A DNA stretch of 63,024 nt, filler included, from Malassezia furfur (GCA_052055015.1; 10 parts of 10 records of this genome joined end to end with filler, not necessarily neighbours in it); one strand, 5' to 3'; numbered from the whole stretch's first letter, positions 387-62,858 are shown. Notes: generated from the letters alone by a model not told the origin. A program made the numbers and translations.

Positions 387-2359
387 CTAGGCTACGGGAG
401 ACATGCTAAACAGCTCGCCCTCGGTCTCGCTCGGCGGCGGCGAGGCCGCCGTGTGTACCGAGAGCGCAGGTGCGCCTGCGCGCGGCGGCATGTGTGTATT
501 AATCGAGAGCGACTGCATCCCACGCGCGACATCCGTCGGCGCCGCCGCCGCCGACGCGGGCGACGGCACATCCGACTCGTCGTCGTCCGGCACCGACGCC
601 GTGCCATGCGCCGCCGCAGGCGACGCGGGGACAGAACGTGCATTACGTACCGGCATGGGCATGTGCGACGGCATCATGTGCATCATGCCCGGCGGGGCCA
701 TCATGCCGAACGGCGCAAACGCCACCAAACCTGGCTCGGTCCGCGGCGCTCGCTCGTGGGCTGCGCCGCGCGGCATGCCCGGTGCCGTGGTCGGTGGCGC
801 AAACATCGCAGGGTTAGGGGGGTATGTGACGCCCTGCATCGCAGCGGCGCCGTAGTGCTTGGTAAAGTCGTCAAGCGGCACGGGGCCGCTCGACCCGAAC
901 GGCTCGCGTGGCGCGTGCCGGGGCAAGGAGCGCGAGCCCGTAGACGCGTCATGGTGCCGCCGCGAGCTGGGAAAATCGGGCGCGCGGGAGAGTTCGTCCT
1001 CGCGCTCCTCGCACAACTCGTCGAGGAGCGCAGTGGCACGTGCGCTGCGGTTCGACAGCAGGCGGCCTGCGCGCATAAACTCGCCGCGGATCGTATAGAG
1101 GCCATCCTTGGTGACAGTGCGCGACACGTTGTACCCGTGCTGGAACGGGTCCTCGATGCACAGGTGCTCACCACTCCATCCCCGCGACTCTTTGGTGACG
1201 AGGCCTGCCTCGGTGTGGATGGAGATGGCGTCCTTGGCATAGTTGAAGTCGCGCGAAAAGTACCGGAAAAAGTCGAGCATCAGCTCGCCGACCGAGTCGG
1301 TACACAGCGAGTGCCACTCGCGCCGGAGTGTGTCGATATCGTCGTAAAAGTACACATTGCACCCGTCCAGCTCCGCCTCCTCCGGCGCGAGCGGCCGCCC
1401 AGGCGGGATGCGCTGCAGGTTCGGCAGCACATTGGGGCGACGCACATGGATCAGGTAGAAGAGCACGAGCAGCGTGTAGCCGTACGAGGACAGTGTGCCC
1501 GTGTACGGCGAGTTGAGCTTCCGCCGCTTGGTCCATACCTTGAGGAAGAGGACGAGCGTGCGGAGCCGTGCAGGGTCGATCATCGCGTACGACAGCAGCA
1601 GACGCGTATTCTCCAGCGCAACCTGGTTGTCGAAGCCGATGTCGCACGCAATGTCGCACGGCACCTCGCTCGTCGCGCGTCGGCTGATCTTGATGATAGG
1701 GATCCGTGCCTTGGGTAGCGGCAGAACCTGGAAATCGGTTTCTGCGTGTGAGCGCGCCACGTACCTTTACGGATCAGCTCGCCCAGGATCTCGACCATCT
1801 CAGAGGCGCTCCGATGCGCGTCGTGCGCGTCGTCGTCGCCATGAGGGATCATACAGCACAGGTCCATGTCTGGGGGAGGTCAGTGGCACAACGTACCCGA
1901 GTTGCGCAGCGCAAAGCCGTTGGCCATGCTCCCGAACGCGAGGAGGCGTGCGCCTGGGCACACACGCGCTGCGAGCTGCTCGAGCTGCCGCCGCGTCGCC
2001 TCCTTGATCTCGTACTCACGGTCCGTCGGAAGCATCGGCTCGAGGATCTCTATCATTGCGCGCGCGAGATCAGCCGTATGCCGCTCATAGGTCTGCGTCA
2101 CACTCCCTGCCGGACCGCGCGAGCGCCCGCGCGGTTGTGCACCATGCACGCTGCCAGTGCGGTCCGCGGGCGGTGCTGGGACGCGAAATGGTTCGCGCCC
2201 GTACGGCGCGTGTATTGGCGCATGCGGCAGGTGCGGATCGGATGACACGGACCGCGGTCTTCGCAGAGCACTATCACCCCACACCGGGCTGCCCACTCCT
2301 GGATGCGGATGCGCGGCTTGCATCGCGACCGGCGCGACGTGAGCTGACGTCGGCTCCAT
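387..2359 (-). CDS. Cid1/Cid13-family non-canonical poly(A)/poly(U) RNA nucleotidyltransferase
   Basis: Motifs FGSMANGFALRNS-DMDL (Pol-beta GS..DxD), CDIGFDN, GTLSSYGY, CIEDPF. Introns at 1870-1896 (27 nt) and 1742-1764 (23 nt) join three ORF-track pieces. Confidence 0.9.
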
Positions 2360-2579
2360 GGACGAGGCGGGGTGGGCGTAAATGGAGGTGCGTATCAGGG
2401 AAGTGCGGACTACGCTACAGGAGGGGCAGGACGCATGGGACAAGCGGCGCACACGCGGACCGGCGGCGCGCGCGAATGAATCCACGCACGCGCACTGGGT
2501 GCCGCGGTACACGCTGCTTGCGCTGCGCGCGTACGCACCGGCGCGTGGCCGGCGCAGGGTATGTGGTCAGGATCGGCCG

Positions 2580-2882
2580 CTAAGCCTCCTGGAACTCGGC
2601 ACGGAGCTGGTCGCGCTCTTCCTTGGACACCTGCGTAAGTATGCTATGCCAATGGCGTGTGTGACATACCTTCCAGAACCGGTTCTTGCGCGGGACGTAG
2701 GGCACGAGGCGCACGTTGCTCGGCAGGTCGACGCTCTGGAGCTTGTCGAGCACAGTCGGCGCGGCCGGCGCGGGCGTCGTGCGCTGGGCCGTCTGTGCTG
2801 CCTGGCGGATCACCGCCTTTTGGATGCGCAGGTGTTGCGGCAGCGGCTGGATGTGCAGCAGCCGGGGCACACTCGCCAACAT
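2580..2882 (-). CDS. Small hypothetical protein (~87 aa) with a possible mitochondrial presequence
   Basis: ATG 2882 (MLASVPRLL...). In-frame intron candidate 2631-2669 (GTATGT...CTTACGCAG, 39 nt). Divergent from TFC3. Confidence 0.55.
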   Translation of the reverse strand: MLASVPRLLHIQPLPQHLRIQKAVIRQAAQTAQRTTPAPAAPTVLDKLQSVDLPSNVRLVPYVPRKNRFWKVCHTRHWHSILTQVSKEERDQLRAEFQEA

Positions 2883-2954
2883 CGTCGTCGTCGCAGGTCG
2901 AAGAAAAGCGCACGTGACGTACGCGCTCCGGTCTGTGCGCCCCCCACGAGCGTG

Positions 2955-5900
2955 ATGCTGGCGCGGCTGCTGGCGTACTGCGTCGAGCAAATCGCGCTCG
3001 ATGGCGAACAAGGTACGCGGCGCATAAATGCTCATCACAGGCACGGACGTAGAACGTGTGTTTGCGTTCGCGGCCGCGTGTATCGCGCGTACGGGCGTGC
3101 GCGCGGTGCTTGACGCGCCCTATCGCGCGTACGTTTGGGAGGCGCTTGTCGCGCATCCCGACGTGTACGTGGGTGTGGCGGTAGAGCGTGCCGCACCCAA
3201 GAGCGAGCGACGGACCTCGGTGCTTGGCAAGGCGGCGCCCGCATCGATGGCGCCTGACCGGATCGCGTCGGGGCCGTTGGCGGCTCTGCAGCACGCGCAC
3301 GGTGATGCGCTGCGCGTCGCGGTCGATGCCCAGCGTGTGCGGCGCCTGCTGACGGGAACCGATGATCCAGCCTACTTGTCCCCCGCCGCGTACGTGGTGC
3401 TGCAGCATGTGAGCCGCGCACGCGCCGCCGGACTCACCGTCGTGGAGCTGGGCAAGGCGACGCACTACGACCAAAAGACGGTGTTTTATCTGGTCAAGGC
3501 GCTGGTGGAGCGCGACTTGGTGTACGTTGAACGACTGATGCAGGGCCAAGTTTGCTGCGCCCGAGATGGGGCACGTGTCCAACTACATCGTCTGCAAGGC
3601 CTTCCTGGCGGACAATCCCCAGTGGCAGGCGCAGCAGAATGCGCTCGGCGATGCGGCGCACGCGGAGGACGCGCAACCCAGGTGGATGGACGTCGACCGC
3701 CTCGCGACGATCGAACAGCAGCGCGAGAGCGACGACGAGGACGACGACGCGATGCCCGAGCTTGCCGTCGAAGGCGCCGCGAGCGAGGGGTCCGATATGC
3801 TCGCCTTCCCCCTGCTGTCCGAGGAGCAGAGCAAGGTGTGGCTGCACAGTCGGCAGGACCTGCTGCGCCAGCGACTGTTTGGATTGCTGCGGGCGTCGCC
3901 GGCGCACATGACGCCGCGCCGGCTGCTCGCTACGCGCCTTGGCCTGCGGTCTGTGCCGGGCACGAAGCGTGCCCTGATTGCGTTCCTGAACCGCAACGTC
4001 ACTGCCGGCTATGTTGAGCGCGTGCGTGTGCAGCTGGGCCATTTAACGCCGCTATACCTGCGTGCGACCGAGCGTGGCCTGCACGCGCTGTCGGACGATG
4101 GCGCCGCCGATGCGCCGCCCGATGCGTTCCTCGCTTCGTGGACCGTCGAGCGCGAGGCGAGTGTCGAGCAGCAGCTCGTGCGCTACATCTCCGCGCGCGG
4201 GTCGCACGGCTGCACGCTGCACGAGCTTGCGGTGCACTTCCACGCGTCTACGGACGTGAAGCGCATGATCGAGCAGATCCTTGCGGGGCAGACCGCGCCG
4301 CCTTACACACCGCTCACGATCTGTGCGCCGTTTGAGCAAGAGGGGCGCGAGCGGCGTATCCGGTATTATACATTTGCGGGCTTCCAGGCGCGGTGTGCCG
4401 ACGACGGCGTCGACCTCGCCGCGGCGCTCGGACTGCCACCGCACGCGCCGATCCCGACGGCGGCCGCGCCGCTGCCGCCGACGCTGCCGGGCGAGGCGGC
4501 GTTTGCGGACTCGGACGCGTATACAGCCGCGCTCGCAGGCCTGCAGCGGCACGAGCTCGGCTTTTTCCGCGACGCCACAGGACCCGTGGCGCTGCGCAAG
4601 CGCAAGGCGACCAACGTCGACCCGGTAACCGGACAGCCGAAGCGCGGACGGCCGCGCAAGATCAAGGCCGAGGACCGCGCGGCGTCCACGGCCGAGGCAG
4701 ACGCCGCAGCGGAGACCGCCGCACCCCCGCCGGCGCCCGTGCCCGCGGTGGCACCGGCACCACGCTTGCCCGATGCATGGGCGCAGCTGCAGCCCGCACC
4801 TGTGCGTGCCGAGGCGCGGCGGACGAACATGAGCACGTTCCACCGGAGCACGCTGCTGCTCTCGGCCGTGGAGAGTGCGGGCGGCGCGGTCGACGAGCTC
4901 GATGTGCCGCGCCTCCTGCAGCAGGCCGGGGGCCCTGACCTCGCGGACCGCACGACGCGCGCCAAGGCGATTGACGAAGCGGTGCGCCGGGGTCTGCTGC
5001 GTACCACCAAGGTGCAGCGCGACGCGGGCGACGCGCACCGCCAGCGCACCATCTTGTACCTACCGTCGCTCGCGGCCGACCAGCTGCAGGCCGTGGTGCA
5101 GGACGTGGTGCAGGGCCGCAGCGCGAGCCGTGCCGGCGTCACGAAACGCTCCGACGTGACGGGCGCCGAGGCGGGGCTGCTGGACGCGGCGCCGGCCACG
5201 CTGCCATGGGCGACGTCGGACAAGGTGCCTGCCGCGCCCGCCGACGAGGCCGGTACGCCCACGGCCGATCCCGCCGACGATCCTGCGACGCGGCACGCCT
5301 TTGCGCGGCTGTCGCACGTGCTCCGGGCGTTCTACGGCTTCTCCCACGGCGCCGCGGCACGGCTGCACCTCTTCCATGCGGCCGCGGCGACGCAGCCTAC
5401 GGCGCCGGACGTCGACCTCACCTGGTTCTGGACGGCGTGCCCGGTGTGGACCTATGTGGCACTCGTGCCTGTCAAGCTGCGCACGCGCACGGTGGTACGC
5501 ACGGTGCTGAGTGAGGCAGCACGGACCATGCCCGTGCACGAATTGTCCGAGCCCGTGGCGCAGCGCCTCGGTCTGCGCCGCATCAAGGCTCACGCCGTGC
5601 GCTTCCAAAGCTATGCCGAGCAGCTCGTGGCGCTCGGTGTCGCGGCGCGCGAGGGCACCGACCAGTACAGGCTGTGCACCGACGCCGAGCTCGGCGGCAC
5701 GCACTACGATCTGCGCACGCGCGAGGGCATCGATGCGTATTGGGCGGCGCTGCGTGCGGCGTATGCGCCAGCGGGCGAGGGCGGCGACGGCGACGGCGAG
5801 GGCGGCGAAGAAGATGGCCGTGAGCGCAGTGCGGATCAAGCGGCAGGCGGCGCAGACGCGAACAGCAGCGGAGCAACGCACCGGCCCCCACACCCGCGCC

Positions 5901-6927: not shown

Positions 6928-8024
6928 CTACAGTAAACCGGTCTCGCGCAGCGAGTTCTGCAACAGTGTCTCCTTGACCGCGGCAAAAACGAGGCGGATG
7001 TTGCTCGTGTCCGTGGCCTGTGTTAGATGCGGGTAAATGTTGAGCTTGGCGCGATTCGCCAAGGTGAAGCGCCAGAGAATATATTTCGCAGCCTTATTGA
7101 CATCGTCGCCGCCCGTGTACTCGGGGAAGTAGTCGGACAGCGGGTGCCGCGGGATTTTTTGCCGGAAGATGTCAATTTTGTTGAGTAGGAGCACAATCGA
7201 GGTGCGTGCAAACCAGCCTGGGTCAGTCGTCCTCACGTACGTGAATTCACCACACTCTCGAACAGTACCAGACTCTCTGCCATGCGGTTCTGTCGATTGT
7301 CCTCGAGCAGCACCTGGTCGTACTCGCTGAGCGCGACACAAAAAATGATCGACGTCACCGCCTCGAAGCAGTGGATCCATTTGCGCCGCTCGGAGCGCTG
7401 CCCGCCGACGTCCACAAGGTGGATCGAAAGCTCGCCCATGCGGAAGTGGGTCTCCATGATGCCTACCGTCTTGGACCGCGCGTGCAGTACGTCCTGCTCG
7501 CTCGGCAGGTAGGTCGACGAGGCGATCCGCTGTGCCTGCTCAAAGAAGTAGTCCGCATTGTCCATCATGTAGAATTCGCCCCGGCGTTCAAGTAGCGCTG
7601 GAATCACTGGGTCCTTCCACAGCGACGCGATCATCGTGCCCATCTCGGCGGGCAGCGTGAGGTTCGCGTCCGCGGGCACGCTGTACTCGAGGATGCGGTC
7701 GGCCGCCTCGCGGTTCGTCAGCTCTTGGGGCTCGAGCGAGAAGCGGCGCAGCGCCAGCACCACCGCCTGCGCCGAGTCAATCAGATTCTTGATTACCGTG
7801 AGCCGGTACACGAGCAGCTCGTTCGGCGTGAAGCCGTTCTGGTGGATGATCTTCATCTGCTTCACGATCGTCGACTTGCCCGACTCGCCAGAGCCGAGCA
7901 GGAGAATCTTGTACTCGCTCTTCCCGCGCCGGCTGTCCTCATCAATGCGCTTGTCGATGTCGAGGCTCTTTTGCTTGGCATCCTGGTCCACGCCGTGCGC
8001 CGGACCAGAGAAGCACGCGCCCAT
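6928..8024 (-). CDS. Heterotrimeric G-protein alpha subunit, fungal group III (cAMP pathway, Gpa3-like)
   Basis: MGAC myristoylation/palmitoylation start, [26 protein letters not shown] 23-nt intron at 7218-7240 restores SVVNSRWF. Confidence 0.95.
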
Positions 8025-8104: not shown

Positions 8105-9622
8105 CTACAGATGGCTCTTGCGCTCGCCCGTCGGGTTGAGCACGTTCGTCTCGGGCAGCTCGCCCATGGTCGTGCCGCGGTTGTGCAGCGCGCGCAGGTC
8201 GAGCATCTCAGGCACGACGTCGCGCATCGTCGGCGCGCCAATCAGGCGCATGTTCATCTCGATCTCGTCGCGCAGGATTTGCACCGCGCGCACAACACCG
8301 TCCGCACCGTACGCCGAGAACGCGTAGATGAAGGGGCGGCCGATGCCGACGGCAGTGGCGCCGAGCGCAATCGCCTTCAACACGTCCGTGCCGCGGCTGA
8401 TCCCGCCGTCGACAAACAGCTGGAACGTGGGGCCCGGCGCCTTGCCCCGCTTGCGCAGCTCGTAGACGACCTCTTCGAGCACCTCGATGCCCGAGCGCGA
8501 AAAGTCGAGCTGCCGGCCACCGTGGTTGGACAGGACGCAGCCGGCAAAGCCCATGTCGTACGCCTTCAGTGCGTCCTCCCAGCACTGAACGCCCTTGAGC
8601 AGGACGGGCATGCGCACTTGGTTCTTGATCCACATCGCGTCGTTCCAGTCGAGGCCGGGGTCGATGAACGAGCTGATGGCACGCGCGGCGCCCTCGTCGC
8701 GCGAAACCTCGTCGCCCGAAGAGCTCTGTACGTTGGACCCTGCGTCGTCAAAGTGCATGCGCATGTCCTGTTCGCGGCGCCCGAGCTGCGGCGCATCGAC
8801 GGTGATGAAGAGCGCCTGGACGTCGGCCTCCTCGGCCTTGCGCAGCATCTCGCGCACGATCTTGCGGTCGCTGTTGACGTACAGCTGGAAAAACTGCGTG
8901 GGCTTGCCGCCCTCGGTGCGTTCGTTCACAATCTCGTCAAAGCTGCACGACGACAGCGTCGGGATCATCTGGATGAGACCGGTGCGCGCAGCGGCGCGCG
9001 TCAGGTTTTTCTCGCCGTCGGGGTGGCCGAGGCGGCCTAGCGCCGTGGCGGTGATGTACACAGGAAGCGTGCTGGGGTGCCCGAGAATCGACGTGCTGGG
9101 GTCGACGTAGCGCACGTTGCGCAGGATGCGGGGACGGAACCAGATGCGGCGGAACACGGCGCGGTTCTCGTGGTACGTCTCGAGGTCGTCGGCGGCCGAG
9201 CTGTAGTACGCCCAGGCCATTGGTGTGAGCACCTGGCGCGCGACCAGGCGGAAGTCTTGCAGGTTGAGACACTGGTCGAGCGGCGGGAGGTTTTCGCGGC
9301 GTTTCTGCTCCTCGCGCGCCTGCTCCTCGCGCTCCTTGCGCAGCGCTTCAGGCACCGTGTTGGTGTCGATAGAGCCGAGGTGCTTCTCCTTCGGGAGGTG
9401 GTTCTCGATCGTGCCCGGCGGGTGCACGGGGTCAAACACGGAGCTGGGTCAGGCGCGAGCAACGTACGTGGCATCCTTCCCAGCGTACTTGAGGATGATC
9501 TGCGTGCCGCCCGGGTGGTCCGGGAGGAAATCGGTCACATCGTACACCTTATCGTAGAGCACAACATAGCAGTCATCGCGCGATGAGTGCTTTGCGACCT
9601 CGTCGTAGCTCCAGACGGTCAT
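8105..9622 (-). CDS. CYB2: Flavocytochrome b2 / L-lactate dehydrogenase (cytochrome b5 domain plus FMN alpha-hydroxy-acid dehydrogenase)
   Basis: HPGG heme motif in exon 1, [18 protein letters not shown]. 24-nt intron 9444-9467. Ends -SHL. Confidence 0.92.
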
Positions 9623-12704: not shown

Positions 12705-13351
12705 CGCTCCTTGTGCCGGTGCTCGTGGCGCTCGTGCCGCTCGCGGCGCTTGCGCTTCTTCTCCTCGGCAAAGTACGCGGCCATCGGGTCCGATAGGTCG
12801 ATGTCGTCGTCCGCGTCCGCGTCGTCTGCGTCAGTGTATCACGTACCGTCGACGATGGTCTCGGGCGGCGCACAGTTGAACGTCTGCTCGTCGGGCTCGA
12901 CGAGGTTCCCGTCCGCATCCGGGACACGCTCGGGCTTGTAGTTCAGCACATGGTCGACACGCAGCGTGCGGCCCAGCACCTGTGCGCCGTTCAGGTTGTC
13001 CACGGCGAGGATCGTCGACCGCTGGTCCTCGTACATGAGGAAGCCAAAACCGCGGTGCTTTGGCCGGCGCTCCGCCTCCGCCTCCGGCGGCCGCGCGCGC
13101 CCGCGGTCGTCGCGGGGCGCATCGTCGGGCGGCCGCGGCAGATGGATGTTGACCACCTCGCCGAACTGCGAAAAGATCGTGATCACGTCGCCCTCGGTCA
13201 CGTCGTACGGAAGCCCGCCCACATAGATGTACGCCGAGTCTGCGTCAGCACGCCACGCACCCTTGTACTGCTCGTGCCACGACCCGGACCCCACGAGCCC
13301 CAGCTCGAGCTCCTGCTCGTTGCGCCGCTGGATATCGCGGATCGAGTTCAT
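12705..13351 (-). CDS. IST3: RES-complex RRM splicing factor Ist3/Snu17/RBMX2; 3' truncated
   Basis: SWHEQYKDSAYIYVGGL after splicing, and GFLMYEDQRSTILAVDNLNG..VLGRTLRVDHV. Two 21-nt introns: 13240-13260 and 12826-12846. Confidence 0.93.
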
Positions 13352-13399: not shown

Positions 13400-14608
13400 A
13401 TGCCGTCCGACACGAGCTACTGGATCGTGAGTGCGCCCGTGCAGGAGGAGAAGAGCGCGGAGCAGATGCAGAAGGACCTTGCGCAGCGTCTCGTGCGTGA
13501 CGGGGCGCTCGACGCGTCCGATATCGCGCCGATGCCGCTCCCCGCGCTCAAGACGGGCACCCTCGAGACGCTCATTTCGCTGTCCGAGGACCTGCCGCGC
13601 ACCGACGCCTTCTTTGAGTCGGTGGTGACGAGGATCGTCGACGCGCTGCGCTCGCTCTTCAACGACGACGTGCAGGCGATGAACGAGCACATGGTCGTCG
13701 AGGACGAGGGCGTCGACGACTATCTGCTCCACTGGCACTGGAACGCCAGCAAGTACCGCGCGGACCGCCCGCTGCCGGACCTCATCGAGGCGTTCACGCG
13801 CGAGATGCAGACCGTCGACAACATCATGAAGCAAAAGATCAACAACTACAACCTCGCCAAGGGGCAGCTCCAGCAGCTCGAGCGCAAGAAGCAGTACGTC
13901 GTCTCCGACTGACCCAGCGGCAACCTCTCGATGTGCTCCCTCGCCGACATCGTGCACAAGGACGACGTCGTGGACGCAAGCTCCGACTTCCTCGTGACGC
14001 TCCTCGTCGTCGTGCCCAAGACGCAAAAGGCGACGTGGCTCGACAAGTACGAGCGGCTCACGCCGATGGTCGTCCCGCGCTCCTCCTCGGAGCTCGCGCA
14101 GGACGACGAGTACGCGTTGTTCAACGTCACCGTCTTTAAGAAGGTCGAGCAGGAGTTCGTGCAAAAGGCGCGCGAGAACAAGTTCCAGGTGCGCGACTTT
14201 ACCTACGACGAAGAACAGCTCGAGCGCGAGCGCCGCGAGCTCGACGAGGCCGGCGCCTCGGAGAAGGAGCTCTGGACGGAGCTCGTGCGCCTCGCGCGCG
14301 TCAACTTCGGCGAGGCGTTCCAGGCGCTGATCCACTACCGCGCCGTGCGCACCTTTATCGAGAGCGTCCTGCGCTTTGGCCTCCCGCCCAACTACGCCGT
14401 GTCGCTCCTTCGGCCGAACGCCCGGCGCACCAAGCAGCTGCTCAAGTCGCTCGTCAGCGAGTACGCGTACCTCGACGAGTACCTCGGCAAGGAGCGCACC
14501 GCCAAGGACAGCGCACCCACGCAGGAGACGCCGGGCGAGTTCGCCAACCTGCTCGAACAGGAGGTGTACCCGTTCGTGCTCACCGAACAGCCCATGATCC
14601 TCGTGTAG
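13400..14608 (+). CDS. VMA5: V-ATPase V1 subunit C
   Basis: LKTGTLETLISLSEDL, YERLTPMVVPRSS, FIESVLRFGLP. 24-nt intron 13894-13917. Confidence 0.95.
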
Positions 14609-16558: not shown

Positions 16559-16638
16559 GGTCGCGCGCGTGGAGCTACAAAGGGGCGCCTACATAATGGG
16601 CCGCACGTGGTACATCTTGGCTAAGCGGGTCAGTGACG

Positions 16639-46389: not shown

Positions 46390-46711
46390 ATGACCGAGGT
46401 TGACCATACGGCGTCGCTCGAGGAGGCTCAGGCTGCGCGTCTGCCCCTCGGCTACCGCGATGCGTGCAGCGCGTACGTTGGACGAGCTGACCAAGTCTGC
46501 TGATCCCGCTCAACCAGTGCCGGCGGAAGACGCTGTATGCGCCCTGGAAGTGTGAAGAGGAGCGGTACGTCGGCTCACAACTTACGCAGCCACACCTACG
46601 AGCGCTGCCAATACCAGGAGTAGGTCGCACTTCTACTGACCCAGTTTCCTTGCGCGCGAAAAGAAGCTGCGCCAAATGAAGCTGCAAGAGGCCGAGGCGG
46701 CCGAGGAGTAA
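46390..46711 (+). CDS. NDUFB7: Complex I subunit NDUFB7 (B18)
   Basis: LPLGYRDACSALLIPLNQCRR...PWKCEEERHTYERCQYQDF (twin CX9C). Introns 46473-46495, 46565-46589, 46620-46644. Confidence 0.93.
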
Positions 46712-46728: not shown

Positions 46729-47496
46729 CTATCGTACACTGGGCGTGGATGCCGCACCCTGCTTGCTACCGACACCGTCGACCGTGTGGGTGGACGAGTT
46801 GGCCGCCGCGACATCGTGGCGGTACAGCGCGTCCTGCCGCAGCTCGAGGGCCTTGCCGACGAACCCGATATAGAACACGCGTGAGGTCTGCTGCGTGGCC
46901 GAGTCGGACTGAGGTCAGCAGCGTTGACGTACCAGCATCACGCTGACGCTCTGTGTCTGTGCAAAGCGCGAGGCGCTCACGGGGTACGCCGTCACGCCCG
47001 GCGTTTGCTCGAGGAGCGCAAAGTCGGCCTGTGGACGTGCGCCGCCCGCAGGCCCGACGTGCGCGCCGGGCACTGTGTCCATCTCGGCGGCGGCTTCGTC
47101 GAAGTCGATTCCATTGGGCCGGTTGACAAAGAGCGTACATCGCTGTGTGAGACGGTGGACGTACGCGCGGCGCAAAGTCGCCCGTGCCTGGATTGAGTAG
47201 GATGCTCTGGAGGCGCACCGGACTGGTAAACGGCACGGTGATGATCATCTGGATGAGCGAGCATTGCCTACCTGGTCGTCGACGCCGCTCTCGATCCACA
47301 CGTCGGTGGTGTTGCGCGCGTCCCAGGGTTTGATGGCGTCCTTCGCGGACTCGGGCGGGTCGAGATTCAGCCCATAGACCCGGTCGCGGTCAATGTAGGT
47401 ATACAGGTTGTGCGCATCGCCGTATGCGCCCGTTGAGTTGCCCGCCTCGGCGTTCGGCTCGCGGTCCAGCGCAGTTGCGTCGCCCCCGCACTGCAT
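46729..47496 (-). CDS. PITH-domain protein (PITHD1-like)
   Basis: [48 protein letters not shown]. Introns 47249-47271, 47143-47164, 46909-46932. Confidence 0.88.
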
Positions 47497-50990: not shown

Positions 50991-52166
50991 ATGGCTGCGC
51001 CGCCGCCCGAGTCGGCCCGGTCGTACCTGCCGACGCCCGCGCTGGACCATGCGTTTGCCGGGATGGCCGCGGGAACGATCGCGACGCTGTGCATGAACCC
51101 GCTGGACCTCGTCAAGACGCGCTTCCAGGTGAACGATGCGGCGTTCTCTGCGGCGCCGGCGGAGCGCTCCGGCTTTTACCAGCGTATGCACGCGCGGCGC
51201 TGGGCGTGGTACGCGCTGGGCGGCAAGCCCGGCGTCGACGTGCTCGATGCGCTGCGCGGCATTGTGCAGCACGACGGCGTGCGTGGGCTGTACCGCGGTG
51301 TCGTGCCCAACATCGTGGGGAACGCCTCGAGTTGGGGCCTCTACTTTCTGTTCTACACGATGATCAAGGAGTACATGGCGCGCTCGTCCTCGAGCGAACA
51401 CCCCGTGCGCCTCACGGCCACCGAGCACCTCCTCGCCGCGACCGAGAGCGGTACGTCGCCCACTGACCCAGGCGTCGTCACCGCCATCCTCACCAACCCG
51501 ATTTGGGTCGTCAAGACGCGCATGTTCACCACGCAGCGGCGCCCCACGCCGCACCCGCCGAGTGCCGCGGGGACACGCAGCGCAACGAGCGTGCCGGCGC
51601 TCGCGGGCACGCCGAGCATGGTCGGGCGCCCGGGCGCGTCGCCGGTGGCGTACCGCAGCTTGCTCGACGGCCTCCTGCAGACGGCGCGGCACGAGGGCGT
51701 GCGTGGCCTGTACAAGGGCGTGGGCCTTGCGGTGCTGGGCGTGTCGAACGGCGCGATCCAGTTCATGGCGTACGAGCAGCTGAAGCAGTGGCGTGGCATG
51801 CGCCGCCTGCGCCGCGAGCGGCCCGGGGCCGAGTTCTCCGAGCGCCAGCTGGACGACGTGCGCCTGAGCAACCTGGAGTACACCGTGCTGTCCGGCGCCG
51901 CCAAGCTGTTTGCCATCACGCTCACGTACCCCTACCAGGTGGTGCGCTCGCGCGTGCAGACGCATGCGACCGCGCACCTGTACCCCAGTGCGTGGGCGTG
52001 CGTGCGGCGCACGATGCAGAACGAGGGCATGCGTGGCTTCTACCGCGGGTTCGCGACGAACGCCATCCGCATCCTGCCGGGGACGTGCGTGACGTTTGTC
52101 GCGTACGAAAACGTGTCCTGGGCGCTGCGGCGCGCCGCGGCGTACCGCGCCGGGGATGTACAGTAG
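50991..52166 (+). CDS. FLX1: Mitochondrial FAD/folate carrier (Flx1/SLC25A32)
   Basis: PLDLVKTR, GNASSWGLYF, NPIWVVKTR, YPYQVVRSR. In-frame 21-nt intron 51451-51471. Confidence 0.92.
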   Translation: MAAPPPESARSYLPTPALDHAFAGMAAGTIATLCMNPLDLVKTRFQVNDAAFSAAPAERSGFYQRMHARRWAWYALGGKPGVDVLDALRGIVQHDGVRGLYRGVVPNIVGNASSWGLYFLFYTMIKEYMARSSSSEHPVRLTATEHLLAATESGTSPTDPGVVTAILTNPIWVVKTRMFTTQRRPTPHPPSAAGTRSATSVPALAGTPSMVGRPGASPVAYRSLLDGLLQTARHEGVRGLYKGVGLAVLGVSNGAIQFMAYEQLKQWRGMRRLRRERPGAEFSERQLDDVRLSNLEYTVLSGAAKLFAITLTYPYQVVRSRVQTHATAHLYPSAWACVRRTMQNEGMRGFYRGFATNAIRILPGTCVTFVAYENVSWALRRAAAYRAGDVQ

Positions 52167-54928: not shown

Positions 54929-55718
54929 ATGACGCTCGCGGCCGCGAAGACCGCGTGCCGGAAGCACGCCGCGGCGATGCTCCAGCGCGTGCCGCGCGCC
55001 TCGCTCGACGAGCAGGGTACGTCGCTGTACTGACGCAGCGCACGCCGTATGCGAGGCCGTGCAGCGCCTCCCAGCATTCCAGCACGCGCACAACGTCAGC
55101 ATCTACCTCAGCATGCCCACCGGCGAACTCGACACGTGGGCGCTGAGCCGCGCGGCCCTCACGCTCGGCAAGCGCCTGTACGTGCCGCGCTTCTCGACGC
55201 TGAGCGCGGGCGCGCGTGCCTCGGAGGACCACAAGTTCACGACGGACATGCAGATGCTCCGCGTGCACGACGTCCACGAACTCGACCATGGCCTCACCGC
55301 CAACAAGTGGGGGATTGCCGAGCCCCCGCTGCTGCGCGCAGGCGCAGCGCGCGAAGACGGTACGTCTCTTTTTTACGCAGCGCTCCTCACGGGCGGCGCG
55401 GGTCTTGACCTGATCATTGTACCGGGCATGCTGTTTGACAGGAACGGCGGCCGGCTGGGGCATGGCAAGGGCTACTACGACCGCTACATTCGCCGCGCAC
55501 ACGCGTTTGCGCAGGAACGCAAGGCGCGTGTCCCGTACATTGGTACGTGCACGGCTGACCCAGTTGCGGTTGCGCTCCGCGAGCAGATCAGCGACGAGCC
55601 CGTGCCGACGGGCGACACGGACGTGCCGATCGACGCGCTCGTCACCGCGGACCACACGTGGGTGTTTCGCGGGGAGGAGGCACAGCACGCCGAAGAGAAT
55701 GTAGGACATGCACCGTAG
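54929..55718 (+). CDS. FAU1: 5-formyltetrahydrofolate cyclo-ligase (Fau1/MTHFS)
   Basis: YLSMPTGE, WGIAEP, LDLIIVPG..FD..GGRLGHGKGYYD. Introns 55017-55038, 55360-55380, 55543-55563. Confidence 0.94.
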
Positions 55719-57116: not shown

Positions 57117-58365
57117 ATGGCGCCCGCAGCCCGCTCCGCGCTGTGCTCGGCCAATTTCAATCAGGACTTTAGCTGTATCGCGATCGGCACCCGCACAGGC
57201 TACTCCATCGTGCAGTGCGAGCCATTCACGCGCGTGTTTGCGCAGGGTACGTCGCGCCCGCCCCACTCACGCAGCCGACGCACCCACCGCGCAGGTGGAG
57301 ATGCTGTTCAGCACGAGCCTCGTGACCGTCGTGCCGCTGCCGGACGCCTCCGCGCGCGCCAGCAGCGCCCAGCGCCTGAATGTCATCAACACCAAGCGGC
57401 AGTCGACGATCTGCGAGCTGTCGTTCCCGACCCCGGTGCTCCATGTGCACATGAACCGCCGCCGCCTCGTCGTGGTGCTCCAGGGCGCGCTGTTCGTGTA
57501 CGACATCAGCAACATGAAGCTCCTGCACACCGTGGAGACCGCGCCGAATGCCACAGGGCTGTGTGCGCTCTCGCCCAACTCGGACCAATGCTACATGGCG
57601 TACGCAGGGCCCTTGGCCGGCACCACCGACGGCGCCGCCAGCTCCGGCACTGGCACCGGCACCGTGGTCCTCTACGACCTACTTACCCTCAGTGTTGCGG
57701 GCGTCGTTGCGGCGCACCGCTCGCCCGTTGCCTGCCTGGCCTTCAACGCGAGTGGCACCATGCTGGCGACCGCGAGCGAGAAGGGCACCGTCGTGCGCGT
57801 GTTCTCGGTGCCAGATGGCGCACCGCTGTACCAGTTCCGCCGCGGATCGTACGCCGCGCACATCGGGAGCATCACATTCAACGCCGCGAGTACGCTGCTG
57901 TGCGTCACGTCGGACACCGGCACCGTGCACCTCTTCCAGCTCACGCACACACGCACACACGACACGGCGGGCGATGCAGGGGCGCCGCCAGCGGCACACA
58001 CGGAGCATGCGTCGCCGCGGCGCAGCGCGTCGCTGCGCAACGCGTGGCGGCGGCCGTCGGCGCTCGTGGGATCGGTCGGGGGCTATCTGCCCACATCGCT
58101 CGCGGGGATGTGGGAGCCGGCGCGCGACTTTGCGCATATCAAGCTGCCGAACCCCGGCGTGCGCGCGATCGCAGCCGTGAGCAAGTACGTCGTTGCGCCA
58201 CTCACACGCAGTCTACCCGCACAGGTGATGGTGCTGACCATGGACGGCCACTTCTACGTCTACGCGTTGGATCTCGAGCACGGCGGCGAATGTGTCTTGA
58301 CGAAACGTACGGCATCGACCCACTCACGCACCGAATACTCGCTACTGGACGGCATCATGACGTAG
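57117..58365 (+). CDS. ATG18: PROPPIN autophagy protein Atg18/WIPI
   Basis: NFNQD, EMLFSTSL, LATASEKGTVVRVF, FRRG. Introns 57247-57274, 58185-58211 and a putative GT-CG intron 58307-58333. Confidence 0.95.
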
Positions 58366-58367
58366 GT

Positions 58368-58703
58368 TTACAGCGACGCAACGAGCTTGTCGAGCTCGCC
58401 GGACGACTGCGCGCTGAGCAGCGCATCGCAGCCGCCGAGCTGCTTGCCCGAGATGAAGATGTTGGGCACCGTGCGCTGGCCCGTCTTCTCGAGCAGGTAG
58501 TTTTGGATGTCGGAGCCGTTGCTCACCTCGTCGAGCTCCATCACACCGACCTTCTTCTGGTCGACCTTGAGGTCCGAGATCACGCTCTTGGCGCGGCGGC
58601 AGTACGGGCAGTACGACTTGCTGAACACAGCAATCGCGTTCTCGCTAATAAACTTCTGCGGTCAGCGCACGCCACGCACCTCCGCAGCCTGTTTCGCAGC
58701 CAT
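58368..58703 (-). CDS. Dithiol glutaredoxin
   Basis: FSKSYCPYC, QRTVPNIFI, GGCD. 24-nt intron 58656-58679. Confidence 0.95.
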
Positions 58704-59694: not shown

Positions 59695-60508
59695 TTAGGC
59701 AGTCGTGTGTACATTCTCCTGGACGCTGCCGTCGTCCTTCAAGATGGCGATGGAGCCGTCTTCGTTGCCGAAGTAGGCAGCCTTACAGATGTGCGGGAAA
59801 AGGCCGACCTCGACAACACCCGTGATCTTCTTGATCTCGACAAACAGGTTCGCTGGGTCGCGCATGAGGGCCTCGGGGAACGGCGCGTCGATACAGAAGT
59901 TGCTGTTGTCCGTCACGACGGGTCCCGCCTTGGCCTTGGCCATGCGCAGTACGGGACTGATGCTGCCGAGCTCCGTCAGCTTGCGGAGCACGTGCGTCGC
60001 GGCGAAGGGCGCAACCTCGACCGGGATGCCCTGCTTCCACGACTCGCCGAGCACCTTGGAGCGTTTCCGGAAGTCGGCCACGACGATAAATGTCTTGGCG
60101 GCCTCAGCGAGCACCTTTTCGCGCAGCTGACAAGCGCCGCCGCCCTTGATGAGGTTCAGCGCGGTGTCGACCCTGGGGTGAGCCATCTTCCACGTACTCA
60201 TCGGCGCCGTCGAGGGTCACATCGAGCGCCGGGAACATGTCAATGTCGCCGAGCCGGAGCCCACCATCGATGATCAGGTTCTTCGACTGGAAGCCGGTCG
60301 GGACGAACCAGCGATCGCGGTTGACCTCGGCGCCCTGCGCGATGATGCGCTCGACGACGTACGGCACCGTCGAGCCCGACCCGATGCCGATCAGCTTGTG
60401 CTCGGCACGCACGTGGGTGTCGACGGCCGCGTACGCCGCCGCGCGCTTCGCGGACTCGATCAGACTGAGGTTCTTGGCCGCAGACGCTGCCGTGTTTGCT
60501 GCTGCCAT
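59695..60508 (-). CDS. RKI1: Ribose-5-phosphate isomerase A
   Basis: GIGSGSTV, DGADEVD..LNLIKGGG after removing 25-nt intron 60173-60197, GVVEVGLF. Confidence 0.96.
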
Positions 60509-60652
60509 GGTGCGCGAAGCCAGTGCCGGGTCCGCCTGCAGGGTCAGGGCCGCGTGTGGAGCGTGCTGACAAAGCACCGAGCCCGTGCGCGCGGGCGTGC
60601 GTCAGCGCCAAAAAAAAAAATATCGCTCCCACGCGAAGGTCCGCCACCCAAG

Positions 60653-62002
60653 ATGGCCGACGAGCAACTACCGCACGAGCCCGAAGTGGAGCATGGCGAG
60701 GACCTCGTACTGACGAACGACGACGTGGACGCCGATGTGACCGAATCTGCCGAGGCGCCGATGGACGAGGGCGAGGACGCCGAGCAGGACGCGGGCGGCG
60801 ACGACCAGATGGAGTTCCAGGACGACTCGATCGCCGCATTCTACGCACACCGCGCATCGGTGTTCTGCGTGGCGCTGCACCCCAACTTCCCCCAGCCGCC
60901 GATCGCCGTGAGCGGCGGCGAGGACGACCGCGCGTGGCTGTGGAACACGATCGACGGCACCGAAATTGCGCAGCTCAGCGGGCACAGCGACAGTGTCGTG
61001 GCCGTCGCGTTTAGCCACGACGGCGAGATGGTCGCGACCGGCGGCCTCGATGGCCGCGTGCGCGTGTGGCGCCGGCACGGCGATGGTTGGAACACGTGGG
61101 AGTTCCTTACGAACCTCGAGGGCCCCTCCGAGGTGGTGTGGCTCGCTTGGCACCCCAAGGGTCCGGTGCTGGTCGCCGGTGCGAGCGACGCGACCGTGTG
61201 GATGTGGCAGCTGCCGAGCGGCAACACGATGAACGTCTTTAGCGGGCACACGGGCTCGGTCACCTGCGGGCGCTTCACGCCCGACGGCCGCAAGCTCGTC
61301 AGCGCGAGCGACGACGGCTCGCTGATTGTGTGGGACCCGCGCAGTGCGGCGGTGCTCGCCAAGGTCGGCGATGACGACACGCGCTTTGCGCTCGACGGCG
61401 GGATCACGTCGCTGTGCATCTCGCCCGACTCGCGCCTCATCGTCGTCGGTGGTGCGGCGGGCGGCGTGCGCGTGGTGAGTGTGGCGAACCTCGATAGCAC
61501 GGGCGGTGTGTCGGTGGTGGGTGTGCTCAACGGGCACGCCGAGGGCGAGAGCGTCGAGAGCGTCGAGTTTGTCGACCTCGTGCCCGCGGCGTCGACGGGG
61601 CCGTTTAGCGGCCCGACGTCGCGCACCTCGACGCACATCGTGTCGGCCGGCACGGACGGCAAGGCGATTGCGTGGGACCTCACCACGGGCAAGGCGCGTG
61701 GCGAGGCGCTGCACGAAGCGGCGGTCACCAAGCTCGTCGTGCACCCGCACACGCCGCTCTTCACCACCTCGTCGGTGGACCACCTGATCCGCACGTTTGA
61801 CGCGCGGTCCATGCAGACGGTCGGCATCCAGCACGGCTTCACCGACGGCGTGCTCGACGTGGCGGTCGGCATCGACGACGGTCTCACGCAGGGCGCTGAG
61901 ACCGGCGGTGTCGGCGCCTATGCGCATGCGACGCCGTCCAAGGGCTACAAACTGGTCGGCGCGGGCGACGAGGGCGTCGCGCTCGTCTTCCGCCTGCAGT
62001 AG
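60653..62002 (+). CDS. SQT1: WD40 chaperone of uL16, Sqt1/AAMP
   Basis: Acidic N-terminus, DDSIAAFYAH, SGGEDD, WLAWHPKG, GASDATVWMW. Confidence 0.88.
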   Translation: MADEQLPHEPEVEHGEDLVLTNDDVDADVTESAEAPMDEGEDAEQDAGGDDQMEFQDDSIAAFYAHRASVFCVALHPNFPQPPIAVSGGEDDRAWLWNTIDGTEIAQLSGHSDSVVAVAFSHDGEMVATGGLDGRVRVWRRHGDGWNTWEFLTNLEGPSEVVWLAWHPKGPVLVAGASDATVWMWQLPSGNTMNVFSGHTGSVTCGRFTPDGRKLVSASDDGSLIVWDPRSAAVLAKVGDDDTRFALDGGITSLCISPDSRLIVVGGAAGGVRVVSVANLDSTGGVSVVGVLNGHAEGESVESVEFVDLVPAASTGPFSGPTSRTSTHIVSAGTDGKAIAWDLTTGKARGEALHEAAVTKLVVHPHTPLFTTSSVDHLIRTFDARSMQTVGIQHGFTDGVLDVAVGIDDGLTQGAETGGVGAYAHATPSKGYKLVGAGDEGVALVFRLQ

Positions 62003-62016
62003 ATGCATAGAGCCAC

Positions 62017-62858
62017 TCACGCCTGCCAGCAGCACGCACCGAGCGGCGCGGCGAGGCGCGTAAGCAGCAGCGGCCGCGTCTCGCTCCCGTCGTCCGCGAC
62101 CGACTGCCGCGCAAAACTAAACTGCGACTCAGAGCCGTGGGTATACAGTGCGCGTTCGCCGTACGCGACGCCCGCGTCGGCCCGCGCCGGGTCGAGACGG
62201 CCCGCCTCGACGTCAAGCAGGATCTGCCGCGCGCACAGCACGAACGGCACATCGACATTCTCTCCGGTGAGGGACGACGTCTCGGTGAAGAGCACGTCGT
62301 GGGCACGCGCCCATGCGCTCGCCTCAAGAAACTCGACCTCGCGCTCCTCTGCCGCACGGTCGAGCTTGTTGCCGACCAGCACAATCGCGGCGTGCGGCGC
62401 CGCAAGGGCGCGTGCGTCGTCGAGCCACCGCGCAATATCGGCAAACGTCGAGCGACTGGGTGAGTGTGTGTGCGGCGTACCGTGTGATGTCGTACACGAG
62501 CAGCACCGCGGCCGAGCCGCGGTAGTAGCTGCGCGTCACCGAGCTGGGTCAGTGTGCGCGACGTACCGGAAGCGTTCCTGGCCGGCAGTGTCCCAGATCT
62601 GCAGCTTGACATGCCGCCCACCGACCATCACGATCCGGCTCGCAAACTCGACGCCAATCGTCTGCGAAGAGGGCGCCTTGGCTGCGTCAGCCCACGCGGC
62701 GTACCCTGACGGTCCACAAAATGGTGGACGAGGCAGCTTTTCCCGGTGCCCGACTCGCCTGCGTCAGCACGCCACCTACCTATTACAATAGCCTTGACGA
62801 GCACATCTGTGTGAGCCATGCACGTACCGTACGCGCCGCGCGGCGTCGCCCGGTGCAT
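62017..62858 (-). CDS. Rab GTPase, Rab4/Rab2/Rab14 group
   Basis: [45 protein letters not shown]-terminal CC. Five introns: 62807-62827, 62759-62779, 62682-62704, 62544-62566, 62456-62480. Confidence 0.92.

What the first reader, a model, noticed from the sequence alone, without database searches (positions are those of the whole stretch)
1742..62827. Ultra-short spliceosomal introns across the window, with floor and mode at 21 nt
Seen: 50 introns reconstructed by hand from frame shifts and restored conserved motifs. Length counts: 21 nt x12, 22 x5, 23 x9, 24 x6, 25 x6, 26 x2, 27 x3, 28 x4, 30 x1, 31 x1, 39 x1; none below 21. The shortest have a nearly fixed layout: GTRYGT, ~6 nt, CT(G/C/A/T)AC branch, ~4 nt ending YAG, with no polypyrimidine tract. 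The branch A sits only ~15 nt from the donor. Established: typical fungal introns are ~50-70 nt, and introns near 20 nt are mainly known from ciliates, nucleomorphs and microsporidia; Malassezia is known for short introns. Inference: this spliceosome works near its steric limit, since simultaneous U1 and U2 binding is hard to fit, and standard gene finders with larger minimum intron sizes will mis-annotate many of these genes.
Basis: partly seen in the sequence, partly recalled or inferred. Interest (0 to 1): 0.8.

Follow-up and report, generated by a model that had tools for sequence, protein, structure and literature searches.

The report
Ultra-short 21-31 nt introns, Malassezia yeast
The window comes from a Malassezia-type skin yeast whose genes are interrupted by real but extremely small introns, most often exactly 21 bases long and never shorter here, a feature already recorded for this genus.

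Summary
An independent gene finder (minimum intron 14 nt) gave 52 credible introns: 21 nt x14, 22 x5, 23 x9, 24 x6, 25 x6, 26 x2, 27 x2, 28 x4, and one each of 29, 30, 31 and 39.

The 21-nt layout GTRNGT-N6-YTNAY-N-CAG occurs 14 times against 0.04 expected. The 20- and 19-nt versions occur 0 times.

27 of 52 junctions have homology support from Pfam or PDB coordinates that run on across the junction, or from ortholog alignments. 37 of 52 cannot be read through. One database protein identical to the window is the spliced product across two introns.

RNA-seq could not be used.

The closest named species is Malassezia brasiliensis. Its public ORC4 and MTHFS proteins lack the peptides that the window's 21-nt introns in these two genes would encode.

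Short Malassezia introns are already published: mean 30 bp in curated M. sympodialis, and median 30 bp in M. restricta, annotated with minimum intron length 15-20.

So the feature is real and clean, but already known in kind. I found no printed statement of the two hard spacing floors or of the stop-free, in-frame 21-nt class.

The parts
1742..1764 (-). 23-nt intron, Cid1/PAP-like gene
   Evidence: Frame-shifting length. MTPAP-like_central profile runs 5-57, then a 34-aa exon, then 97-138, across this intron and the next.
1870..1896 (-). 27-nt intron, same gene
   Evidence: Contains an in-frame stop. Same approximate Pfam continuity.
2631..2669 (-). 39-nt intron, the longest in the set
   Evidence: Motif and codon model only. 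In frame and stop-free.
3013..3040 (+). 28-nt intron, TFIIIC B-block-like gene
   Evidence: Frame-shifting. Coding frames agree on both sides.
3522..3543 (+). 22-nt intron, same gene
   Evidence: Frame-shifting. Strong coding score on both sides. The B-block_TFIIIC match runs to the end of the exon.
7218..7240 (-). 23-nt intron, G-alpha gene
   Evidence: Pfam G-alpha profile 2-245 ends at the exon end; the next exon starts at 247.
9444..9467 (-). 24-nt intron, cytochrome b2-like gene
   Evidence: In-frame stop. Cyt-b5 profile 2-47 ends at the exon end.
12826..12846 (-). 21-nt intron, RBMX2/IST3-like gene
   Evidence: In-frame stop. Frames agree on both sides.
13240..13260 (-). 21-nt intron, RBMX2/IST3-like gene
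   Evidence: The read-through shows an exact 7-residue gap against human RBMX2 and yeast IST3 chains.
13894..13917 (+). 24-nt intron, V-ATPase subunit C gene
   Evidence: Pfam profile 1-154, then 156-371. In-frame stop.
16621..16649 (-). 29-nt intron before the last 9-aa exon of a Glu/Gln-tRNA synthetase gene
   Evidence: Frame-shifting. Motif present.
22208..22228 (+). 21-nt intron in a long, poorly conserved gene
   Evidence: 7-residue gap in 2 of the homologs aligned, P0277 and P0270.
22847..22867 (+). 21-nt intron, same gene
   Evidence: Motif only. Homolog P0269 carries a peptide of the same motif at this site.
25868..25893 (+). 26-nt intron, TPR-containing gene
   Evidence: Frame-shifting. 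Frames agree.
25931..25953 (+). 23-nt intron, same gene
   Evidence: Frame-shifting with an in-frame stop.
26053..26073 (+). 21-nt intron, same gene
   Evidence: Motif only. The PDB search gave nothing.
28162..28183 (+). 22-nt intron, PAXNEB (Elp4-like) gene
   Evidence: Frame-shifting. Pfam profile 4-122, then 141-309, an approximate continuation.
29583..29603 (-). 21-nt intron, ORC4 gene
   Evidence: The 7-aa read-through insert is absent from 9 of the 10 named ORC4 proteins aligned.
29997..30017 (-). 21-nt intron, ORC4 gene
   Evidence: The 7-aa read-through insert is absent from all 10 named ORC4 proteins aligned.
31184..31204 (+). 21-nt intron in a gene of unknown family
   Evidence: Motif only.
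34318..34342 (-). 25-nt intron, Utp13-like WD40 gene
   Evidence: Frame-shifting. Motif present.
34798..34825 (-). 28-nt intron in a small gene
   Evidence: Frame-shifting. Strong coding score on both sides.
35082..35106 (-). 25-nt intron, same gene
   Evidence: Frame-shifting. Motif score 17.6.
36322..36345 (+). 24-nt intron, mitochondrial-carrier-like gene
   Evidence: In-frame stop.
38524..38549 (+). 26-nt intron, cyanase gene
   Evidence: Frame-shifting. CYNS_N profile 6-35 ends at the exon end.
38761..38782 (+). 22-nt intron, cyanase gene
   Evidence: Cyanate_lyase profile 2-30, then 31-68.
40130..40153 (-). 24-nt intron, EXS-family gene
   Evidence: In-frame stop. EXS profile 1-103, then 111-329, an approximate continuation.
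41635..41664 (-). 30-nt intron, ribosomal protein uL2 gene
   Evidence: Exon 2 matches chain 8eug_A residues 5-52 and exon 3 matches 54-251.
41813..41840 (-). 28-nt intron after a 3-codon first exon of uL2
   Evidence: Exon 2 starts at chain residue 5. The model begins MGR/V.
44859..44879 (-). 21-nt intron, Tlg2-like syntaxin gene
   Evidence: The alignment gap against Tlg2 (6xmd_B) falls on the intron-encoded residues, within a weakly conserved linker.
45942..45964 (-). 23-nt intron before the last 9-aa exon
   Evidence: Frame-shifting. Motif present.
46216..46238 (-). 23-nt intron, same small gene
   Evidence: Frame-shifting. Frames agree.
46473..46495 (+). 23-nt intron, NDUFB7 gene
   Evidence: NDUF_B7 profile 2-21, then 23-44.
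46565..46589 (+). 25-nt intron, NDUFB7 gene
   Evidence: Frame-shifting. Motif present.
46620..46644 (+). 25-nt intron, NDUFB7 gene
   Evidence: Frame-shifting. Motif score 17.2.
46909..46932 (-). 24-nt intron, PITH-domain gene
   Evidence: In-frame stop.
47143..47164 (-). 22-nt intron, PITH-domain gene
   Evidence: PITH profile 56-83, then 86-137.
47249..47271 (-). 23-nt intron, PITH-domain gene
   Evidence: PITH profile 6-55, then 56-83.
47580..47610 (+). 31-nt intron directly after the ATG of an XRN 5'-3' exonuclease gene
   Evidence: Exon 2 residue 1 matches XRN_N profile position 2. The sequence reads ATG, then the intron, then GVPALFRW.
51451..51471 (+). 21-nt intron, mitochondrial carrier gene
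   Evidence: Motif. The PDB alignment is not decisive.
55017..55038 (+). 22-nt intron, 5-formyltetrahydrofolate cyclo-ligase (MTHFS) gene
   Evidence: The spliced model is collinear with the orthologs.
55360..55380 (+). 21-nt intron, MTHFS gene
   Evidence: 7-aa read-through insert; 13 of 14 named MTHFS proteins aligned have nothing at this site.
55543..55563 (+). 21-nt intron, MTHFS gene
   Evidence: The 7-aa read-through insert is matched in none of the 14 named MTHFS proteins aligned; M. yamatoensis ends here.
57247..57274 (+). 28-nt intron, PROPPIN (Atg18-like) gene
   Evidence: Frame-shifting. The PROPPIN profile starts at position 48 at residue 7 of exon 2.
58185..58211 (+). 27-nt intron, PROPPIN gene
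   Evidence: Motif score 20.5. In frame and stop-free.
58656..58679 (-). 24-nt intron after an 8-codon first exon of a glutaredoxin gene
   Evidence: In-frame stop. Motif present.
60173..60197 (-). 25-nt intron, ribose-5-phosphate isomerase gene
   Evidence: Pfam profile 2-37, then 39-173.
62456..62480 (-). 25-nt intron, Rab4 gene
   Evidence: Ras profile 64-82, then 85-161. P0001, 100% identical, is the spliced product.
62544..62566 (-). 23-nt intron, Rab4 gene
   Evidence: Ras profile 28-61, then 64-82. P0001 spans the junction.
62682..62704 (-). 23-nt intron, Rab4 gene
   Evidence: The spliced model aligns without gaps to the 9 named Rab4 proteins; one, P0013, has a deletion of its own downstream.
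62759..62779 (-). 21-nt intron inside the Rab4 P-loop coding region
   Evidence: Read-through would put 7 residues immediately before the GESGTGKS motif. All 9 named Rab4 proteins have no gap at this junction.
62807..62827 (-). 21-nt intron, Rab4 N-terminus
   Evidence: All 9 named Rab4 proteins have no gap at this junction.

Best explanation
These are ordinary major-type (U2-dependent, GT-AG) spliceosomal introns of a Malassezia yeast, shrunk to about the smallest size that still holds all three signals.

Each intron has:
- a strong donor, GTACGT in most;
- a spacer of at least 6 nt;
- a strong branch site, CTGAC, CTCAC, CTTAC or CTAAC;
- one further base, usually just one;
- CAG.

Length varies almost only in the donor-branch spacer (6 to about 18 nt, 24 in the 39-nt intron). 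The branch A sits 5 nt from the 3' end in three quarters of the introns. The 3' splice site is therefore presumably chosen as the first YAG after the branch, without a polypyrimidine tract.

The floor of 21 nt is the sum of two separate minimal spacings: 15 nt from the 5' splice site to the branch A, and 5 nt from the branch A to the 3' end.

Shown here: the introns exist, their lengths and layout, and the need to remove them to get conserved proteins. Inferred: that the A of YTNAY is the branch point, that U2AF-type tract recognition is dispensable, and that the floors are steric.
For: -
- Enrichment over shuffles: 14 against 0.04, and 45 against 2.5. There are no 19- or 20-nt instances.
- 28 of 52 introns shift the frame and 9 more carry in-frame stops.
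- 27 of 52 have homology support:
  - exact Pfam continuity at 9 junctions and approximate continuity at 4;
  - uL2 chain coordinates at 2 junctions;
  - the XRN_N profile start at 1;
  - ortholog alignments for Rab4, ORC4 and MTHFS at 8 further junctions;
  - gaps in solved-structure or representative alignments at 3.
- P0001, a 187-aa database protein 100% identical to the window, reads straight across the 23- and 25-nt Rab4 introns. The window DNA cannot give this without splicing.
- Closest named proteins are M. brasiliensis at 94% (ORC4) and 88% (MTHFS).
- Published Malassezia annotations report introns of mean or median 30 bp.
Against: - No RNA-seq or lariat data could be laid on the window, so neither branch use nor splicing efficiency is shown.
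- Six introns rest on the motif and a drop in codon score alone: 2631, 22847, 26053, 31184, 51451 and 58185.
- The splice matrices were trained on motif-picked introns of 20 nt or more, so very short or signal-poor introns could be missed.
- The sample is 52 introns from about 62 kb, not a genome.
- The source of the contig behind P0001 is unknown to me. That it comes from RNA is inferred from the absence of the introns.
Confidence: 0.92

Rival explanations
1. The in-frame, stop-free segments (13 of the 14 21-nt ones) are not introns but short coding insertions that happen to look like splice signals.
For: They keep the frame and have no stop. Several public proteins of related species contain such peptides.
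Against: The exact 21-nt motif occurs 14 times against 0.04 expected. At 6 of the 14 sites the 7 residues are absent from distant orthologs. One would lie immediately before the Rab4 P-loop motif. At 13240 both human RBMX2 and yeast IST3 show an exact 7-residue gap. The public proteins that keep the peptides are predictions, and they disagree with other predictions for the same genes.
Confidence: 0.03
2. The floor at 21 nt is only apparent. It comes from a small sample and from a finder trained on introns of 20 nt or more, and shorter introns exist elsewhere in the genome.
For: Only 52 introns were sampled. The training set excluded anything under 20 nt. Other eukaryotes are reported to splice exceptionally small introns, for example Stentor (PMC9505925, abstract seen).
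Against: Motif layouts with a 4- or 5-nt spacer, or with no base between branch and YAG, have 0 instances, while the 6-nt/1-nt layout has 14 and is the mode. The distribution ends at its peak, which is not how a sampling tail looks. No gene model needed a shorter intron to keep a Pfam domain whole.
Confidence: 0.12
3. The segments are removed by something other than the major spliceosome, such as DNA-level excision or another RNA-processing route.
For: Their size is closer to ciliate eliminated sequences or to unconventional introns than to typical fungal introns. A copy lacking the introns exists in a database (P0001), and its molecule type is unknown to me.
Against: All 52 have GT...AG ends, an extended donor consensus and a fungal-type branch consensus at a fixed distance from the 3' end. 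These are the signals read by U1/U6 and U2. The published M. sympodialis introns of this size class are supported by RNA-seq junctions.
Confidence: 0.02

Closest known systems
Short introns of Malassezia sympodialis and M. restricta as annotated from RNA-seq (PMC5389616, passages and Table 2; PMC6473144 and PMC9241646, passages)
   Same: Same genus by protein similarity and the same size class. The published figures are mean 30 bp with 99% RNA-seq support, and median 30 bp. The annotators had to lower the minimum intron length to 15-20. M. brasiliensis ORC4 and MTHFS lack the peptides that the window's 21-nt introns would encode.
   Different: Here the mean is 24.1 and the median 23. In the parts I read, those papers give no length mode, floor or signal spacing. 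Their size-distribution figure (Fig. S8) is a picture I could not read.
Tiny introns of ciliates (Paramecium about 25 nt, Stentor) and of chlorarachniophyte nucleomorphs (abstracts and listing; the nucleomorph sizes are recalled)
   Same: Comparable lengths, a length distribution with a sharp lower bound, and no polypyrimidine tract.
   Different: These introns are GC-rich (61%) and carry strong yeast-like donor and branch consensus sequences. Ciliate and nucleomorph introns are AT-rich with weak internal signals (recalled). The lineage and origin are different.
Trichomonad and diplomonad introns with a branch site fused to the 3' splice site (recalled from memory, not checked here)
   Same: The branch motif lies at a fixed, very short distance from the AG, so the 3' site is set by the branch.
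   Different: The distance here is even shorter, 5 nt from the A to the 3' end. Introns are frequent here, about 1 per kb of coding sequence. The organisms are unrelated.
Human donor-to-branchpoint space constraint (PMC11291888, abstract)
   Same: The idea of a minimum donor-to-branch distance set by spliceosome assembly.
   Different: The minimal productive distance reported for human is 46 nt. Here it is 15 nt.

Membership tests
U2-type (major) spliceosomal introns | GT at the 5' end and AG at the 3' end | tested here: met
   52 of 52, though the finder required this.
U2-type (major) spliceosomal introns | Extended 5' splice-site consensus | tested here: met
   In the 39 training introns: GT 39/39, A at +3 in 34/39, C at +4 in 35/39, G at +5 in 39/39, T at +6 in 37/39. 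Positions +1, +2, +3, +5 and +6 were constrained by the motif that picked the set (GT[AG]NG[TC]); only +4 was free.
U2-type (major) spliceosomal introns | Branch-site consensus with an adenosine upstream of the 3' splice site | tested here: met
   YTNAY is present in 52 of 52. The A is 5-10 nt from the 3' end. Use of this A as the branch was not tested.
U2-type (major) spliceosomal introns | Polypyrimidine tract between branch and 3' splice site | tested here: not met
   39 of 52 have only C-N-Y-A-G after the branch A. This feature is also optional in budding yeast (recalled).
U2-type (major) spliceosomal introns | Removal restores an open frame and the conserved protein | tested here: met
   37 of 52 cannot be read through. 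27 of 52 have homology support.
U2-type (major) spliceosomal introns | Spliced RNA and lariat observed | not testable with these tools
The only indirect evidence is P0001, which reads across 2 junctions.
Malassezia ultra-short intron class | The organism belongs to Malassezia | tested here: met
   The best named hits are M. brasiliensis at 94% and 88%, followed by other Malassezia species. No genome is held, so the species itself is not named.
Malassezia ultra-short intron class | Bulk of introns about 20-40 nt | tested here: met
   The 52 introns span 21-39 nt, mean 24.1, against a published mean or median of 30 bp.
Ciliate or nucleomorph tiny introns | AT-rich, weak internal signals, ciliate or nucleomorph host | tested here: not met
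   Intron GC is 0.61 and the branch consensus is strong. The proteins are fungal.

The most novel reading that the evidence does not exclude
Malassezia splices with two hard spacing floors: 15 nt from the 5' splice site to the branch A, and 5 nt from the branch A to the 3' end. These may be the tightest known for an organism that keeps strong yeast-like signals. If so, U1 and U2/SF3b cannot sit side by side in the usual way and 3' site choice needs no tract-binding factor. The most common class, 21 nt, is in frame and stop-free (13 of 14, none in phase 2), whereas all six 24-nt introns carry stops. This hints at selection for harmless retention at the floor length. Neither point was stated in the papers I could read, and a 2026 paper's introduction naming lineages with sub-30-bp introns does not mention Malassezia.
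Probability: 0.3. Interest if true: 0.55.

Novelty: already known. Interest (0 to 1): 0.3.

Why it matters
For annotation, in-frame 21-nt introns are invisible to open-reading-frame logic. They show up in public Malassezia proteomes as 7-residue inserts or truncated proteins. In phase 0 the inserts often have the form VRxxL(T/M)Q. Any comparative work on these skin yeasts inherits such errors.

For splicing biology, a genetically tractable fungus with strong consensus signals and a 21-nt floor would be a convenient system for asking what sets the minimal intron. It contrasts with the 46-nt donor-branch minimum reported for human. The phenomenon itself, however, is already on record for the genus.

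Tried and rejected
No whole genome is held either, so no genome-wide histogram and no inventory of snRNAs, U2AF or SF1 could be made.
- The first gene-finder passes, with a flat intron penalty or a lenient matrix threshold, gave many long spurious introns that hopped across antisense genes. I discarded them in favour of the thresholded run.
- Candidate introns under 21 nt from those early passes (for example 382-395, 34345-34360 and 62023-62039) lack donor and branch signals. They either skipped a stop between neighbouring genes or were replaced by a proper intron nearby.
- I rejected the 51-nt candidate at 11090-11140 because it has no branch motif and is in frame.
- PDB searches gave nothing usable for the introns at 26053 and 31184, and the carrier alignment was indecisive for 51451.
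- The Rfam scan at gathering thresholds found nothing in the window.
- A look-up of earlier notes of this scan returned nothing.
- Six literature searches found no paper in the held library that states a 21-nt mode or floor, or the signal spacing, for Malassezia. Subscription journals are not covered. The M. sympodialis size-distribution figure could not be read.

Full report
**What the window is.** The 63,024 bases are ten pieces of about 6.2 kb joined by N44-TTAATTAATTAA-N44 linkers. GC is 64-68%. True coding frames show GC1 about 0.7, GC2 about 0.45 and GC3 0.82-0.96.

**Re-deriving the introns.**
- A motif scan for GTRNGY...YTNAY...YAG gave 125 overlapping hits, with a sharp peak at 21 nt.
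- A frame test on 30 codons either side showed that the short hits join two strongly coding frames in the phase their length requires.
- I trained donor, branch and acceptor matrices on 39 such introns.
- I then ran a dynamic-programming gene finder on both strands of every piece, allowing introns of 14-120 nt. Earlier, more lenient runs produced many long false introns and were discarded.
- The thresholded run gave 49 gene models and 53 introns.
- I dropped one, a 51-nt in-frame candidate without any branch motif.

The remaining 52 are 21 x14, 22 x5, 23 x9, 24 x6, 25 x6, 26 x2, 27 x2, 28 x4, and one each of 29, 30, 31 and 39 nt. The mean is 24.1 nt, the median 23 and the GC 0.61. That is about one intron per kb of coding sequence, and 30 of 49 models have introns.

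**More than chance.**
- The 21-nt layout GTRNGT-N6-YTNAY-N-CAG has 14 matches against 0.04 expected from shuffles.
- The same layout with N5 or N4 has none.
- With variable spacers, 45 donors match against 2.5 +/- 1.7 (maximum 8) in 200 dinucleotide shuffles.

**Anatomy.** I made a two-way table of donor-branch spacer against branch-YAG spacer. It shows two independent floors: no instance with fewer than 6 nt between donor hexamer and branch pentamer, and none with 0 nt between branch pentamer and YAG. The two apparent 3-nt cases are 23- and 25-nt introns that have a second branch motif further downstream.
- The branch A is at position 16 in 15 of 52 introns: all fourteen 21-nt introns and one 23-nt intron.
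- It is 5 nt from the 3' end in 39 of 52.
- It is 6, 7, 9 or 10 nt from the 3' end in the remaining 13.
- Length variation is therefore almost all in the first spacer, and there is no room for a polypyrimidine tract.

**Are they really removed?**
- 28 of the 52 shift the frame, and 9 of the 24 multiple-of-three introns contain in-frame stops.
- Pfam scanned exon by exon, using unchanged window references, shows profile coordinates running on exactly across 9 junctions: G-alpha 245|247, V-ATPase C 154|156, cyanate lyase 30|31, NDUFB7 21|23, PITH 55|56 and 83|86, ribose-5-phosphate isomerase 37|39, and Ras 61|64 and 82|85.
- Continuity is approximate across 4 more junctions.
- For uL2, exon 2 matches residues 5-52 and exon 3 residues 54-251 of one solved chain.
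- An XRN exonuclease gene has a first coding exon that is only the ATG, then a 31-nt intron, then the conserved GVPALFRW start.

**The 21-nt class needed its own test.** 13 of these 14 introns are in frame and stop-free.
- Rab4: the model with five introns removed (21, 21, 23, 23, 25) has no gap at any of the five junctions against 9 named basidiomycete Rab4 proteins. Reading through would put 7 residues into strand 1 and 7 immediately before the P-loop motif.
- ORC4: the 7-residue read-through peptide at 29997 is absent from all 10 named ORC4 proteins aligned, and the one at 29583 from 9 of 10. The exception is one M. vespertilionis model that keeps an insert.
- MTHFS: 14 named proteins, from Malassezia to Aspergillus and a mucoralean, were aligned. 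At 55360, 13 have nothing at the site and only the Malassezia sp. CBS 17886 protein keeps an insert. At 55543 none matches the insert, though the M. yamatoensis protein breaks off there.
- RBMX2/IST3: alignments to the human and yeast solved chains show an exact 7-residue gap at 13240-13260.
- Weaker support exists for 44859, where a gap falls in a Tlg2 linker, and for 22208, where 2 homologs show a 7-residue gap.
- 12826 has an in-frame stop.
- Four 21-nt introns (22847, 26053, 31184, 51451), the 27-nt intron at 58185 and the 39-nt intron at 2631 rest on the motif alone.

In all, 27 of 52 junctions have homology-based support.

**One piece of indirect RNA-level evidence.** P0001 is a 187-aa database protein 100% identical to the window, called on a 994-nt contig. 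It reads uninterrupted across the 23- and 25-nt Rab4 introns. P0002 is the unspliced version and begins with intron-encoded residues. The source of that contig is unknown to me.

**Organism.** The best named hits are Malassezia brasiliensis (ORC4 94%, MTHFS 88%), followed by other Malassezia species and then Ustilaginomycotina. The M. brasiliensis ORC4 record is 526 aa against the 540-aa read-through here, and in the alignment it lacks both intron-encoded peptides. The M. brasiliensis MTHFS likewise lacks both.

**What is known.**
- Zhu et al. 2017 (PMC5389616; passages, Table 2, section 10 and the supplement legend read) report for curated M. sympodialis 5350 introns of mean size 30 bp, 99% supported by RNA-seq. 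The size-distribution figure is a picture I could not read.
- A 2020 review says Malassezia genes contain very short introns (PMC7426719, one passage).
- The M. restricta re-annotation used minimum intron length 20 and then 15 (PMC6473144, passage). Its median intron is 30 bp (PMC9241646, table).
- In contrast, a fungal intron survey does not mention this extreme (PMC8476143, passages).
- A 2026 paper on the shortest animal introns names ciliates, microsporidia and dicyemids as the sub-30-bp exceptions, not Malassezia (PMC13644364, passages).
- Six searches found no statement of a 21-nt mode or floor, or of the signal spacing, for Malassezia in the held library. Subscription journals are outside it.

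**Mechanism.** The most likely reading is canonical U2-type splicing by intron definition. Near-perfect donor and branch signals replace the information that length and a pyrimidine tract give elsewhere, and the 3' site is taken as the first YAG after the branch.

The two floors argue for geometric limits. In the core, the donor-U6 and branch-U2 helices must be bridged by the spacer. For scale, the minimal productive donor-branch distance reported for human introns is 46 nt (PMC11291888, abstract). A steric-clash argument has been made for Stentor (PMC9505925, abstract).

**Verdict.** The kind of feature is already known for the genus, so novelty is low. Two things remain worth a genome-wide look: the explicit two-floor architecture, and the phase and stop pattern of the floor-length class.

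Noticed in passing
window 6266-6365 and eight further sites; 55827-55836: The window is not one contiguous locus. Nine N44-TTAATTAATTAA-N44 linkers join ten ~6.2-kb pieces. There is also one separate run of 10 N.
   Followed up: yes
P0003, P0042, P0031, P0034, P0048, P0052, P0154 (public proteins aligned): Public annotations of several Malassezia species keep intron-encoded inserts or break off at the positions of these tiny introns. M. japonica Rab4 has a 7-residue insert. Malassezia sp. CBS 17886 MTHFS has an insert. M. yamatoensis, M. psittaci, M. caprae and M. cuniculi MTHFS are truncated or diverge there. One M. vespertilionis ORC4 model has an insert. I inferred this from protein alignments only; their DNA was not seen.
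   Followed up: partly
all 52 introns; 21-nt and 24-nt classes: 13 of 14 21-nt introns are stop-free if read through and none is in phase 2. All 6 24-nt introns carry an in-frame stop and 4 of them are in phase 2. Overall 24 of 52 lengths are multiples of three. The sample is small and the comparison is post hoc.
   Followed up: partly
29997-30017, 29583-29603, 22847-22867 and the P0269 homolog: Retained phase-0 21-nt introns translate to peptides of the form VRxxL(T/M)Q: VRRLLTQ, VRARLTQ, VRVRLMQ, and VRCTLTQ in a relative. This is a handy signature for finding unannotated introns in protein databases.
   Followed up: no
47577-47610 (+): The XRN-family exonuclease gene has a first coding exon consisting only of ATG, followed by a 31-nt intron. 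uL2 (41841-41850) and a glutaredoxin gene (58680-58703) also have first coding exons of 3 and 8 codons.
   Followed up: yes
12707-13351 (-) and 42128-43570 (-): Two splicing-related genes lie in the window. One is an RBMX2/IST3 (RES complex) homolog that itself holds two 21-nt introns. The other is an intron-less AAR2 homolog.
   Followed up: no
P0149 against window 29583-29603: A 95%-identical unnamed relative has 8 rather than 7 read-through residues at the second ORC4 intron. Its intron is therefore probably 24 nt, so length drifts between close relatives while the position is kept.
   Followed up: no
22058-25264 (+): This gene model starts too late. Homologs of 1700-1900 aa align from about their residue 113 onward, so the true start lies upstream of 22058 and further exons may exist there.
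   Followed up: no
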